64,000 nt of DNA from Bilabrum cf. latius (lineage: Eukaryota). The stretch spans positions 124,001 to 188,000 of the forward strand of contig OZ237740.1 in the NCBI GenBank assembly GCA_965178125.1. The letters are read 5' to 3'. Within the stretch, counting starts at the first letter, position 1. Every line of letters begins with the position of its first letter. Of the stretch, positions 1,341-64,000 are shown in pieces. The position numbers and the translations under genes are program-made. The notes beneath the pieces were generated by a model. The model was given only the letters and a program-made list of their open reading frames with translations, was not told where the DNA came from and made no database searches.

Positions 1341-2715
1341 ATGGAGCACGATTCAGACGCCTCGCGCATGGCCGCGATTGGTCCTGGCCTGTACGACATG
1401 AAATGTCTTGACGTGGCGGCAAACTCCACCCTGAAGAGCCGCCTGATGAGCCTTTACAGCGATATTGATTTCGATGAATTGGGAAAGGTGTGGGAGCGCG
1501 ACACCATAGAAGCCGGCCCGGATCGACGCTCGCAGTCGGCGTCTCGCTCCAACCACTCGGCGTCTCGCTCCAACCACACCACCACCGCCAGCACCAAGTA
1601 CACCCGCATCGTGGACGGGCGGGAGGAAGTCGTGGACACCTCGTACAAGACCAGCTCCATCCACGAGGACGGGCCCACCATCCAACGGGCCCTGCAGCTT
1701 GCAGAGCTGGCCTCCAGTGGGGGCAAGGCAGGACTGGATCTCAGCGCGGCGTGGTCATCCGGCAAGTCTCGGCGCACTGCTCAGCTCGCCACAGACGTCA
1801 CGGTGAGCGTCAGGGGAGGCGAGCCCAGCCTCGTCAGCGCCACGCAGGACCGCGAGACGATGATGGCTGGGCTCAAGCGCTGGGCCACCACGGTGGACAC
1901 GATGCCGGCCGTGGTGGACATGAAGTTCTGGGCCCTGCACGGCCTGGCTCTCTTCGGCGACTGGGAGGCGTGCACCCGCATAGCGATGGAGGCAGGCAAG
2001 CGGTCGAGCCGCGGCAGGGTGGAGAGCATGGAAGCGGTCGGCCGGATGTGCTTCATGTCCGGAGACACCAAGATGCTGGGCGCCGACGGCAATGAGCTCA
2101 GGGACATCCTGCTGTCCCAGGTGCTGCAAGCCGCCAAGGCCAGGAAAATCCTCATCGAAGCCGCCATGCAGGAGCGCATTCGGCAGGCCTCGCACAACGT
2201 GTTTGCGTCGCACGGTGCAAGCACGCTGCTGCGGCTGTCGGCCGAGACGGGCCTGCCCAGGGCAGACTGCGAGGAGGTGCTCAACTACCTGATCAAGATC
2301 CACAACGAGCGATCAAGATCCACAACGAGCGATCAAGATCCACAACGAGCGCAGCGCGAATGGATTCCCAGAGGCCAAGCCGTACCCGCTGCAGGACTGC
2401 GACGAGATGGTCAGGAAGCACGAGGCCTTCCGCAAGTCCTGCCACCTGAACGACTCCGAGTTTGCCCTCGTGGACAAGTTCGAGTCAGAGCACGAGCACA
2501 GGCATCCGGACGGCAGCACCACCACCAAGATCGTCAGCGAGTACCACCAGCAGGCGACAGACGCGTGCAGGGCGTGCCTCAGCTCCGTATCGCACTGCAT
2601 CCGGGATCATGTCGTACCGTCCCTGGCGAGATGGGGTATCCGTACGAGACGAGTTATCCAGTGGAGAAAATATAGGCTAGATGGATACTTAAAAAAAATA
2701 TTCAGCTTAAGTTAA
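1341..2715 (+). pseudogene. Hypothetical protein with possible MACPF-like C-terminal motif, frameshifted by a 20-bp triplication
   Basis: ATG at 1341. VSVRGG...W(ATTV)...P(AVVDMKF) resembles the MACPF GG...W...P pattern, weakly. Removing two of the three 20-bp repeat copies at 2291-2350 joins this frame to the 2407..2715 ORF, which ends in TAA. Confidence 0.4.
2291..2350 (+). repeat. Perfect tandem repeat, 3 x 20 bp (GATCAAGATCCACAACGAGC)
   Basis: Read directly from the sequence. Confidence 0.97.
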
Positions 2716-62201: not shown

Positions 62202-64000
62202 TCAAGTGCCATCGCCAGCTGATCTGAAAGCCCGCCAAAAGAAGCCTCCCTTCACCGCGAAGAGCAGAGAAGTCACGGCAAGAGCAGCAGATGCCAGTAC
62301 GGGAGCGCCAGCAATGAACACCCTCTGCTCCCAGAGCAAGCCCTGCGGCACAAGATGCAGCTGGCCGAGCTGCCCGCCGTGCCCGCCCACCCTCCCAAGC
62401 GTGCACGCGTCCCACCCGCACGCACCGGCGGTGCAGCCGATGGCAAGGCCCACAGCGACCAGGATGCTCAGATCCTCGAATAGGCGGAACCACAAGGACA
62501 GTCTGGCCACGCCGCCCGCCACTTTGACCACCCATTCCCTAGGTCGCACGCACGATGCGTGCAGCCCGCTCCACCCGATCGCCTGTGCTTCCCAGGCCAA
62601 GAGCGCGCCCAGCAGCTGGGCCGTCACGCTGCACATGTCTCGGCGGAGGCTGTATAAACTGGCGTGTCCAATGCTACTGGTTGCGATGCTTGGCGGGCTA
62701 GGCTGCGCGGGATACGGCAGTCGTGCCTAGTCAGAAACGGGCCGGTTTTCGTCTTCTTGGCCGACCTCACGAACAGTCTGCTGGGCCGTTCGGTGCGACC
62801 CCCACGTGCTGCTTGGGCGCAGGACAGTGTGCGGCCCTGCCGCCGTTTTGTAGGCCTGGAGCGTGCTCTTGGGCCGAGTGGAGCTGCCGGTATCACTGAT
62901 GGTCTCGCTCTTCATCTTGCCTGTCGTCCTGAGCGAATGCACAGCATTCGCGCCGGTGCTGTTCCCCGAGCGGCCTGTCCCACGCGCAGCAGGGCCCAAA
63001 CCACTGGATGTTTCAAATTCTGTCTCCTGGAACGTAACTCCTTGGCCATGAACGGCAGCAGACGGGGCCTCCGCTCCTTTCTCGAAGCTTGACTGCACCC
63101 GTGAAGCCGTCCCGTCGCTGCTGTCCCCGCGAGAATCGGGAATGGACTCGAAGCGCGGAGTCTCCTTGTTGTCTTGGCGGTCAAACACGGATCCGAAGAG
63201 CATATCGCCAAAGCCAGAGCCGTCGGCACCATCGACCTAACCCGGCAAAGACTGCATAGAAGGCACCTTGATCTGCTCCTGCTCATGGCAATCGGGAGGA
63301 GGCACGTCCACGTCGCCGCTCTCGGGGAACGACTGCATGGAAGGCACTCGAATCAGCTCCTAGTGCTGACCCGGTGCGGATGCTTGTCCATCTGGTGCGT
63401 TCGGTACTTGGGTCCCTGCTGCATCGCATGATTGCTCCTCCTTCTCGCTCACCTCCTCCACGACCCCAAGGCTGCCGCCAAAATCGAAGGTCTGCCCGCC
63501 CAAGCCGCGCGATGACGGACTGCCAGAGTGTGGCAGCCCCGCTGCCGCCCTGCACCACATCTTCTGCACTCCCATTGGACTCACAGTCCCTGAGTGAATG
63601 CTGGATGGGGTGCTCGGCAAGGCCAGAGCCGCCTCCCTCGGCTCCTCCTCGGACCCTTTGGAGGCGCGAGCAAGCCTGGCCAAGTTGTTGCGCGGGGAAC
63701 TCAAGTCAGCGGCGGCGGCAGTGGCAGCTGCCGGTGGATCGAGCGCAGTGCCTGCAAAATGAGACGTACTTTCAGCGGTGTTCTCTGGCAGCGGCTTCGA
63801 CTCTGCCCCGAGGGAGTGGTTTGGGCTGACGTTGCCCCAGTAGCTGGAATCCATGGATGCTGCAGCTAGAAGCACAGAAGCGCCACCGCTGCCACCTGTT
63901 ACCCCCACTGCTGCGCGACCACCTCGACCGGCTCCTAGGCCAATGACAGGGCCTCCTGCGATGCCTTTGGAGCGACTTTCTGCATTTGTGATCCGGCTCG
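62202..64000 (-). CDS. Hypothetical protein with hydrophobic C-terminal region, 5' partial
   Basis: A single frame is open from the window end to TGA 62202, apart from TAG at 63360, 63237 and 62727. Confidence 0.6.

What the first reader, a model, noticed from the sequence alone, without database searches (positions are those of the whole stretch)
2712..64000. Non-standard nuclear genetic code: UAG = glutamine, while UAA and UGA remain stops
Seen: at least 60 in-frame TAG codons, including adjacent TAG-TAG at 5325-5330, interrupt 17 genes whose frames otherwise run without TAA or TGA for up to ~2350 codons. They occur inside conserved domains (AMP deaminase core, MA3, DUF1800, DUF1349, CH domain, pectin acetylesterase). 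No reconstructed gene ends in TAG; most end in TGA, and the EamA and AMPD genes end in TAA. Known: UAA and UAG are usually reassigned together. UAG-only reassignment is rare in nuclear genomes (UAG=Gln in the fornicate Iotanema spirale and a few ciliates, UAG=Leu in an uncultured rhizarian). Inference: this GC-rich, intron-containing genome does not look ciliate-like, so it may be an independent origin of the code. It would need a tRNA-Gln(CUA) and an eRF1 that ignores UAG but reads UAA.
Basis: partly seen in the sequence, partly recalled or inferred. Interest (0 to 1): 0.97.

Follow-up and report, generated by a model that had tools for sequence, protein, structure and literature searches.

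The report
UAG read as glutamine, nuclear genes
This GC-rich protist nuclear DNA, probably from a heterotrophic stramenopile, uses the stop codon TAG as a glutamine codon while TGA and TAA still end genes, a rare change of the genetic code that I found reported only in a few ciliates and one fornicate.

Summary
With TAG read through, the window has 7 open frames of 1000 codons or more (longest 2442). The standard code gives 2, and 60 simulated sequences gave none. Eighteen frames with eukaryotic domains or coding-like codon usage hold 66 in-frame TAGs, 59 of them after the first ATG, in 16,151 codons. These frames were delimited by TAA and TGA, and none needs either codon read through.

Contigs from two runs of two studies carry GT..AG intron joints that the DNA runs lack. 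They keep 8 of these TAGs unchanged, so the TAGs are neither edited nor spliced out.

The amino acid is glutamine:
- One TAG sits in a DUF1800 column that is Q in 120 of 120 homologs.
- Over 8 homolog columns Q scores +4.2 bits; the next best, N, scores -3.9.
- In an internal protein repeat, 3 of 5 TAGs pair with Q.
- One run reads CAG TAG CAG TAG CAG.

Frames end in TGA (18) or TAA (3). No frame needs TAG as its stop, although 20 genes cannot exclude occasional use. Two single-gene trees place the organism among stramenopiles near Cafeteria. The tRNA and eRF1 could not be checked. This is a new member of a known kind of code.

The parts
29980..37308 (-). DUF1800-DUF1501 fusion gene, one open frame of 2442 codons with 6 in-frame TAGs, ending in TGA
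   Evidence: 120 homologs of 31-43% identity cover residues 560-2440.
33775..33777 (-). TAG at residue 1178 of the DUF1800 protein, in the motif ENYAREIM-x-LFTIGL
   Evidence: The aligned column is Q in 120 of 120 homologs. The codon was read directly.
10814..14819 (+). AMP deaminase large exon with in-frame TAGs at 11527, 11533, 11647, 13552 and 14734
   Evidence: Spliced contigs of runs X6 and X7 cover all five TAGs with 0 differences.
14820..14973 (+). Spliceosomal intron (GTGAGT...GCAG, 154 nt) in AMP deaminase. It holds the in-frame TGA at 14821-14823.
   Evidence: The joint 14817>14972 (cut +2) is seen in X6 and X7 contigs and not in the DNA runs X1 and X5. Ends read. Splicing keeps the frame.
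14974..16909 (+). AMP deaminase catalytic exon with in-frame TAGs at 15500 and 16034, ending in a tandem TAA TGA at 16904-16909
   Evidence: Pfam AMP_deaminase E = 7.7e-163. The TAGs are kept in spliced contigs. Tandem stop read.
24715..28092 (-). Gene with no Pfam family, about 240-aa internal repeats and 10 in-frame TAGs
   Evidence: The repeats align at 43% identity over 235 residues, and 5 TAGs pair with Q, Q, Q, Y and S.
59037..59057 (+). Glutamine-rich run TAG CAG CAT CAG TAG CAG TAG (then CAG) in the gene with a C-terminal Nuc_deoxyri_tr2 domain
5325..5330 (-). Adjacent TAG-TAG in the linker between the two EamA halves
   Evidence: The linker of about 420 codons holds no TAA or TGA in frame.
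6648..10100 (-). CDC5L/Cef1 gene. The TAG at 6759-6761 lies 36 codons before the TGA stop.
   Evidence: The conserved C-terminal LQRRY motif of the homologs lies after the TAG, so the TAG is read through. The coding score of the tail is 0.33.
17469..18689 (+). PDCD4-like gene with two MA3 domains. The TAG at 17907-17909 lies in the first MA3 domain.
   Evidence: A spliced contig (intron joint 17367>17469) keeps the TAG.
47564..49036 (-). Pectinacetylesterase/Notum-like gene. The TAG at 48560-48562 lies inside the domain.
   Evidence: NOTUM chains 4uzj and 4uzk have Q at the aligned place; 4uza and 7bo1 have D.
2712..2715 (.). TTAA where two convergent frames both end in TAA: EamA on the minus strand and the corrected orf1248 frame on the plus strand

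Best explanation
The window is nuclear DNA of a GC-rich (about 62%), intron-poor protist, most likely a heterotrophic stramenopile related to bicosoecids. In its cytosolic translation UAG is a glutamine codon, and UGA (the common one) and UAA are the terminators.

Shown here:
- TAG lies in frame in many genes and stays in spliced mRNA.
- It falls where homologs and paralogous repeats have glutamine.
- TAA and TGA are absent from the coding frames and close them.

Inferred from what is known of other UAG-only codes (PMC5304391, passages read):
- The decoder is a tRNA-Gln with anticodon CUA, which pairs with UAG but not UAA. It probably arose from a duplicated tRNA-Gln(CUG) by one anticodon change.
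- eRF1 has lost or weakened recognition of UAG while keeping UAA and UGA.

TAG makes up 59 of 639 glutamine codons (9%) in the frames counted.
For: 1. Open frames. With TAG as sense there are 7 frames of 1000 codons or more (longest 2442), against 2 under the standard code. Reading TAA or TGA as sense adds none. None of 60 simulations reached 1000.

2. The frames are real genes. Pfam finds AMP_deaminase, Myb/CDC5L, MA3, DUF1800+DUF1501, Peptidase_C1_2, EML propellers, PAE, EamA, ankyrin and others.

3. Transcripts. Contigs of runs X6 and X7 (studies P3 and P4) carry GT..AG joints at 10648-10813, 14818-14971 (cut +2) and 17368-17468. DNA contigs of X1 and X5 run straight across these places. 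Contigs that carry such a joint cover the TAGs at 11527, 11533, 11647, 13552, 14734, 15500, 16034 and 17907 with 0 differences. Unspliced contigs of the same runs cover 22865, 23739, 24849, 25350, 25566 and 25689. That is 14 of the 19 in-frame TAGs in the 20 kb laid.

4. Amino acid.
- DUF1800 residue 1178: Q in 120 of 120 homologs.
- Summed log-odds over the 8 alignable columns: Q +4.2, N -3.9, E -8.4, L -20.2 bits.
- Internal repeats: 3 of 5 TAGs pair with Q, where Q makes up 2.8% of the protein.
- The run CAG TAG CAG TAG CAG.
- At one AMPD TAG column, four members of the query's own clade have Q.

5. Stops. In-frame counts are TAG 59, TAA 0, TGA 0 in 16,151 codons. In the two other frames TGA occurs 298 and 265 times and TAA 32 and 53 times. 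CAA:CAG is 115:465, so about 15 TAA would be expected if TAA were also glutamine. Frame ends are 18 TGA and 3 TAA.

6. CDC5L: the conserved C-terminal motif lies after a TAG.
Against: - Most single TAG columns are variable and would not by themselves name glutamine. AMPD columns are dominated by L/M, W/Y and N/D, CDC5L by E/N, and PDCD4 has A. The summed score depends heavily on one invariant column.
- A 96%-identical relative in the protein library (P0459) has E, not Q, at one TAG place.
- The zero counts for TAA and TGA are partly by construction, because the frames were delimited by those codons.
- Only about 20 gene ends were seen. The tails after the last TAG in the ankyrin gene (53 codons, score 0.13) and the PAE gene (36 codons, score 0.06) are only weakly coding-like, so TAG could end those two.
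- Runs X6 and X7 are labelled RNA only as a guess by the tool. Their RNA origin is inferred from the spliced joints.
- No tRNA, eRF1 or peptide evidence was available.
Confidence: 0.92

Rival explanations
1. The code is ambiguous. UAG is glutamine inside genes but also terminates some genes, depending on its position near the 3' end, as described for Condylostoma and karyorelict ciliates.
For: In five genes the last TAG lies 23-53 codons before the TGA or TAA. The tails of the ankyrin gene (score 0.13, GC3 0.53) and the PAE gene (0.06) fall between the coding mean (0.32) and the after-stop mean (-0.30, highest 0.09). In GC-rich DNA an open stretch of 36-53 codons is not unusual by chance: TAA plus TGA occupy about 1.5% of trinucleotide positions.
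Against: The CDC5L tail after its TAG holds the conserved C-terminal motif. The tail of the 24715 gene scores 0.18. The orf1248 case disappears once the frame is corrected. No gene needs TAG as its stop. Every frame reaches a TGA or TAA, and the after-stop windows score as non-coding.
Confidence: 0.06
2. UAG is a sense codon for an amino acid other than glutamine, such as Glu, Asn or Leu.
For: Several TAG columns are dominated by other residues: L/M, W/Y, N/D, K and E/N. The close relative P0459 has E at one TAG place. UAG = Leu, Ser and Glu codes exist in other protists (PMC11687900, passages read).
Against: The invariant column is Q in 120 of 120 homologs. The summed scores are N -3.9, E -8.4 and L -20.2 against Q +4.2. 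Three of 5 paralog pairs are Q, and TAG is interleaved with CAG in a Gln run.
Confidence: 0.02
3. Both UAA and UAG are reassigned to glutamine (the common table 6 code), and TAA is simply rare because the genome is GC-rich.
For: TAA is the rarest stop triplet in the window: 369 against 790 TAG and 1588 TGA on both strands. The AMPD TAA is followed at once by TGA, so that end does not discriminate.
Against: No TAA is needed inside any of the complete domain architectures across 16,151 codons, where about 15 would be expected from the CAA:CAG ratio. Reading TAA as sense lengthens no long frame. Sequence after the EamA TAA scores as non-coding, -0.21. Two convergent frames end on one shared TTAA.
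Confidence: 0.02
4. The TAGs are not translated. They would be assembly errors, pseudogene lesions, RNA-edited sites or unrecognised introns.
For: Some TAGs do sit at probable 3' splice sites or before the start codon (38028, 53768, and the purple acid phosphatase gene). One frame (orf1248) carries a frame-shifting 20-bp repeat.
Against: The same TAGs appear in contigs of four runs from four studies with 0 differences, including spliced transcript contigs. Sixty-six lesions of a single kind, with no TAA, TGA or frameshift lesions among them, do not fit decay. The TAGs lie inside aligned domains.
Confidence: 0.01

Closest known systems
UAG = Gln with UAA kept as stop, in the fornicate Iotanema spirale (PMC5304391, passages read)
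   Same: Only UAG is reassigned, to glutamine, and UAA and UGA are kept as terminators. The proposed mechanism is the same: a tRNA-Gln(CUA) and an altered eRF1. For Iotanema too the tRNA was only predicted; an eRF1 T32G change in the GTS motif was reported.
   Different: It is a metamonad, unrelated to the stramenopile placement found here. UAA is described as the dominant stop there, whereas here TGA closes 18 of 21 frames in a genome of about 62% GC. The eRF1 of this organism was not seen.
UAG = Gln only, in the ciliates Protocruzia tuzeti and two phyllopharyngean lineages (PMC11687900, Discussion passages read)
   Same: The same codon takes the same meaning, with UAA not reassigned. These are independent origines within one group, which shows that the change recurs.
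   Different: They are ciliates. This window has ordinary GT-AG introns of 101-166 nt, long GC-rich genes and stramenopile-like gene trees.
UAR = Gln code (NCBI table 6): many ciliates, Hexamita, Streblomastix, ulvophytes and Amoeboaphelidium, as listed in PMC11687900
   Same: A stop codon becomes glutamine, presumably through a mutated tRNA-Gln.
   Different: In those codes TAA is also glutamine. Here TAA is absent from 16,151 in-frame codons and ends 3 frames.
UAG = Leu in the uncultured rhizarian exLh, and UAG = Ser in Scotinosphaera (PMC5304391, PMC11687900)
   Same: UAG and UAA are decoupled in a nuclear genome outside the ciliates.
   Different: The amino acid differs. Leu scores -20.2 and Ser -14.4 bits here, against +4.2 for Gln.

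Membership tests
UAG-only to Gln nuclear code (Iotanema / Protocruzia type, NCBI table 15 pattern) | In-frame UAG in conserved nuclear genes, present in the mature mRNA | tested here: met
   66 in-frame TAGs. Eight lie on transcript contigs that carry GT..AG joints, with 0 differences.
UAG-only to Gln nuclear code (Iotanema / Protocruzia type, NCBI table 15 pattern) | UAG positions correspond to glutamine in homologs | tested here: met
   120 of 120 Q at DUF1800 residue 1178. Summed score Q +4.2 bits, next best -3.9. Three of 5 paralog pairs are Q.
UAG-only to Gln nuclear code (Iotanema / Protocruzia type, NCBI table 15 pattern) | UAA is not a sense codon and terminates genes | tested here: met
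   No TAA in 16,151 in-frame codons, where about 15 would be expected if it were used like CAA. Three frames end in TAA. The evidence is limited to this window.
UAG-only to Gln nuclear code (Iotanema / Protocruzia type, NCBI table 15 pattern) | UGA is not a sense codon and terminates genes | tested here: met
   No TGA in frame, against 298 and 265 in the other two frames. Eighteen of 21 frames end in TGA. Reading TGA as sense gives no longer conserved frames.
UAG-only to Gln nuclear code (Iotanema / Protocruzia type, NCBI table 15 pattern) | UAG is not used as a terminator | tested here: inconclusive
   No gene needs it, and the CDC5L TAG 36 codons from the end is read through. The ankyrin and PAE tails are only weakly coding-like. 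Only about 20 gene ends were seen.
UAG-only to Gln nuclear code (Iotanema / Protocruzia type, NCBI table 15 pattern) | A cognate tRNA-Gln with anticodon CUA | not testable with these tools
   No tRNA in the window by ARAGORN or Rfam. No whole genome is held.
UAG-only to Gln nuclear code (Iotanema / Protocruzia type, NCBI table 15 pattern) | An eRF1 N-domain altered so that UAG is not recognised | not testable with these tools
UAR to Gln code (NCBI table 6) | TAA also in frame at sense positions | tested here: not met
Ambiguous stop/sense codes (Condylostoma, karyorelicts) | The same codon is sense internally and a stop at gene ends | tested here: inconclusive
   tail scores; CDC5L is read through near its end.
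Stramenopiles (Bigyra, near bicosoecids) as the host lineage | Gene trees place the organism inside the group | tested here: met
   AMPD FastTree: a clade with Cafeteria roenbergensis and unnamed sequences (support 0.97), next to a Schizochytrium clade (0.93), inside a 47-tip group whose named members are all stramenopiles. CDC5L: with the same unnamed transcriptome entry GECG01 (0.91). The named homologs of the DUF1800-DUF1501 fusion are all stramenopiles. These are single-gene trees only; there is no 18S or multigene analysis.

The most novel reading that the evidence does not exclude
This is the first nuclear genetic-code change in the stramenopiles. It would be an independent and fairly recent origin of the UAG-only glutamine code in a free-living, GC-rich, TGA-terminating flagellate lineage near the bicosoecids. 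The nearest sampled relatives have full-length standard-code predictions, which suggests they still use the standard code. Arising in a GC-rich genome, where TAG would be a common stop, would argue against simple loss of the codon under AT pressure as the route to reassignment.
Probability: 0.5. Interest if true: 0.85.

Novelty: new member of a known kind. Interest (0 to 1): 0.78.

Why it matters
UAG and UAA almost always change meaning together. PMC11687900 (passages read) lists only a handful of nuclear exceptions: Iotanema, Protocruzia, some phyllopharyngeans, the rhizarian exLh and Scotinosphaera. Another independent case, in a different supergroup and in a GC-rich genome that ends most genes with TGA, gives a new natural test of how eRF1 can drop UAG alone and how a tRNA-Gln(CUA) becomes established. 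DNA and transcript data for this organism are already public, which makes the tRNA and eRF1 questions directly answerable.

There is also a practical point. Standard-code gene callers cut this organism's proteins into pieces. The public protein library holds a 341-aa fragment that is 100% identical and a 318-aa fragment from a 96%-identical relative, both from a 2442-aa protein. Annotation, orthology and metagenome binning for this lineage will be wrong until TAG is read as Gln.

Tried and rejected
- Whole genome: none is held, so there was no genome-wide codon inference and no tRNA or eRF1 search.
- Earlier findings of the scan: nothing by place, sequence or words.
- Sequencing runs: no listed holder is on record as RNA. 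RNA origin of X6 and X7 was inferred from the spliced joints only.
- AMPD alone: its three TAG columns are variable and do not name the residue.
- Solved structures: PDCD4 has A at the MA3 TAG. The DUF1349 TAG falls in a gap. NOTUM chains have Q or D.
- Metagenome contigs searched with the 96% relative P0459: only relatives of 43% identity or less, so there was no close genome to compare TAG positions.
The source and neighbours of these fragments remain unknown.
- Identity of the transcriptome entry GECG01, which groups with the window in both trees: not found in the paper library nor in one candidate paper checked by DOI.
- Rfam on the whole window: no match.
- Considered and dropped: the TAG at 2673 as a possible true stop. 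It is out of frame after the 20-bp repeat.
- Literature: searches found no nuclear code change in stramenopiles. The library holds only open-licence PMC papers and bioRxiv, and supplements were closed, so an existing report cannot be excluded.
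Full report
**What the window is.** The 64 kb have 56-66% GC. No tRNA or Rfam family is present. No whole genome is held for the window. Frames opened by reading TAG through carry typical eukaryotic domains:
- EamA transporter (2712-6230, minus)
- CDC5L/Cef1 Myb (6648-10100, minus)
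- AMP deaminase (10789-16906, plus, spliced)
- PDCD4-like MA3 (17433-18689, plus)
- HSP20, DUF1349
- a repeat protein without a family (24715-28092, minus)
- a DUF1800-DUF1501 fusion (29980-37308, minus)
- bleomycin hydrolase (37989-39764, plus, spliced)
- ankyrin, a nucleoside transporter, a CH_2-domain protein, pectinacetylesterase, a Trm8-like methyltransferase
- EML (50583-53771, minus)
- a long protein with a C-terminal Nuc_deoxyri_tr2 domain (54801-59648, plus)
- a purple acid phosphatase in at least three exons (60174-62082, minus)

**Is the observation more than chance?** Under the standard code the window has 2 frames of 1000 codons or more (longest 1113). With TAG as sense it has 7 (longest 2442). 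Reading TAA or TGA as sense leaves the number at 2. In 60 first-order Markov simulations read with TAG as sense, the longest frame was 643 and none reached 1000. I count 66 in-frame TAGs in 18 genes, 59 of them after the first in-frame ATG, in 16,151 codons. The other two frames of the same DNA hold 298 and 265 TGA and 32 and 53 TAA. These frames were delimited by TAA and TGA, so zero in-frame TAA and TGA is partly by construction. The point is that complete domain architectures are obtained without reading either of them through. For example, homologs cover residues 560-2440 of the DUF1800 protein at 99-100%. The adjacent TAG-TAG at 5325-5330 is there.

**Are the TAGs in the mRNA?** One search for public runs found 11 that hold part of the stretch, from 6 studies. 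I laid contigs of four runs on 6600-26599. Contigs of X6 and X7, from two studies, skip 10648-10813, 14818-14971 (cut +2), 17368-17468 and 10286-10401, each with GT..AG ends. Contigs of X1 and X5 run through these places. The first two are therefore transcript assemblies, although the tool marks 'RNA' only as a guess. The AMPD intron reads GTGAGT...GCAG. It contains the TGA that closes the first frame, and splicing joins the two frames in phase. Contigs that carry such a joint cover eight in-frame TAGs (11527, 11533, 11647, 13552, 14734, 15500, 16034, 17907) with no differing letter. Other contigs of the same runs cover six more. That is 14 of the 19 in-frame TAGs in the stretch laid. Editing and splicing-out are thus excluded for these sites at the level contigs can show.

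**Which amino acid?** I masked TAG as X before every alignment.
- In the DUF1800 motif ENYAREIM-x-LFTIGL, the column is Q in 120 of 120 homologs.
- Over the eight columns that could be aligned (AMPD 3, DUF1800/1501 4, CDC5L 1; one more was mostly gaps and was skipped), the summed log-odds are Q +4.2, N -3.9, E -8.4, D -10.4 and L -20.2 bits. Seven of the eight columns are variable and, taken alone, favour other residues. The sum leans on the invariant column.
- Independent support comes from inside the window. The two roughly 240-aa repeats of the 24715 protein align at 43% identity, and their five TAGs pair with Q, Q, Q, Y and S, in a protein with 2.8% Q.
- At 59034-59060 the DNA reads AAG TAG CAG CAT CAG TAG CAG TAG CAG.
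- A TQGT/E-x-GT/IQGT repeat puts TAG where the other copies have CAG or CAA.
- At the AMPD column where most homologs have W, four members of the query's own clade (P0068, P0069, P0074, P0086) have Q.
- A 96%-identical relative in the protein library has E at one TAG place. That fits a Q/E exchange but does not prove Q.

**What ends genes?** Eighteen of 21 frames end in TGA and three in TAA. The AMPD TAA is followed at once by TGA. The EamA TAA shares a TTAA with the TAA of a convergent frame. Sequence after the terminal stops scores as non-coding on a codon-usage log-odds (mean -0.30, highest 0.09, against a coding mean of 0.32).

**Does TAG ever terminate?**
- In CDC5L the last TAG is 36 codons from the end, and the conserved LQRRY motif of the homologs lies after it, so it is read through.
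- The tails after the last TAG score 0.18 for the 24715 gene, 0.13 for the ankyrin gene and 0.06 for PAE. This leaves two weak candidates for a TAG stop.
- The TAG at 2673 drops out. A perfect 20-bp x3 repeat at 2291-2351 shifts the frame, and the coding-like continuation runs in another frame to the TAA at 2713.

**If TAA were also glutamine.** The CAA:CAG ratio of 115:465 predicts about 15 in-frame TAA. None is needed.

**Who is it?** No protein in the libraries is close: AMPD 61% at most, CDC5L about 60%, the DUF fusion 43% at most. The exceptions are two fragments that are the organism's own or a near relative's. In a FastTree of AMPD (518 columns, 121 sequences) the query sits in a 19-tip clade with Cafeteria roenbergensis, the transcriptome entry GECG01 and unnamed metagenome proteins (support 0.97). 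That clade is next to a Schizochytrium clade (0.93), inside a 47-tip group whose named members are all stramenopiles (support 0.53). In CDC5L (729 columns, 93 sequences, restricted to homologs of 640-900 aa) the query again groups with GECG01 (0.91). The named homologs of the DUF1800-DUF1501 fusion are Triparma, Hondaea, Pteridomonas and diatoms. The best placement is therefore a heterotrophic stramenopile near the bicosoecids. It rests on single-gene trees only, and I could not find out what GECG01 is.

**Mechanism.** Shown: UAG is decoded as a sense codon that matches Gln. Inferred from PMC5304391 (passages): only a CUA anticodon reads UAG without reading UAA, so a tRNA-Gln(CUA) one mutation away from tRNA-Gln(CUG) is expected. 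eRF1 must have lost its affinity for UAG while keeping UAA and UGA. In Iotanema a T32G change in the GTS motif was proposed. None of this could be tested here.

**Comparison and novelty.** UAG-only Gln is reported for Iotanema spirale, Protocruzia tuzeti and two phyllopharyngean lineages. UAG = Leu is reported for the rhizarian exLh and UAG = Ser for Scotinosphaera (PMC11687900, Discussion passages). The kind of code is therefore known. Seven searches of the paper library found no nuclear code change in stramenopiles. The library is partial and supplements were closed. The case differs from Iotanema and exLh, where UAA is described as the dominant stop: here the genome is GC-rich and TGA dominates. 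I rate it a new member of a known kind, of high interest to people who study code evolution, with the proviso that the data are public and the finding may already be known to their producers.

Noticed in passing
window 2291-2351: A perfect 20-bp x3 tandem repeat (GATCAAGATCCACAACGAGC) lies inside the frame 1248-2747. After it the coding-like sequence continues in another frame (2293-2715). The extra 40 bases are an assembly error, a length polymorphism or a fresh frameshift.
   Followed up: partly
window 2712-2715: Two convergent frames (EamA on the minus strand, the corrected 1248 gene on the plus strand) both end in TAA on one shared TTAA, so their 3' untranslated regions must overlap fully.
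   Followed up: partly
window 18600-21900: Contig depth in DNA run X1 is 5-10 times that of the flanks (79-174 against about 15). Almost all letter differences between runs fall here. This is probably a multi-copy repeat or mobile element. The frame 19797-20789 has no Pfam match.
   Followed up: no
window 60174-62082 (minus strand): A purple acid phosphatase gene in at least three exons (Pur_ac_phosph_N, Metallophos, Metallophos_C). The TAGs in its frames sit just before the exon-like parts and look like 3' splice sites (YAG) rather than codons.
   Followed up: partly
proteins P0366 and P0459, matching window 29983-32988: The public protein library holds short pieces of the 2442-aa DUF1800-DUF1501 protein. 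One is 100% identical and starts 46 codons after a TAG. The other comes from a 96%-identical relative and has E where the window has TAG. Standard-code gene calling appears to truncate this lineage's proteins.
   Followed up: partly
window 24715-28092 (minus strand): A large protein with no Pfam family, two roughly 240-aa repeats (43% identical), an acidic DDTPDPT repeat and a C-terminal hydrophobic segment. It may be a surface protein.
   Followed up: no
window 16904-16909: The AMP deaminase gene ends in a tandem stop, TAA TGA.
   Followed up: no
window 10814-14300: AMP deaminase carries a low-complexity N-terminal extension of about 1150 aa that is transcribed. Several other genes here (EamA, CDC5L, the Nuc_deoxyri_tr2 protein) have similar Gly/Ala/Ser/Arg-rich inserts.
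   Followed up: no
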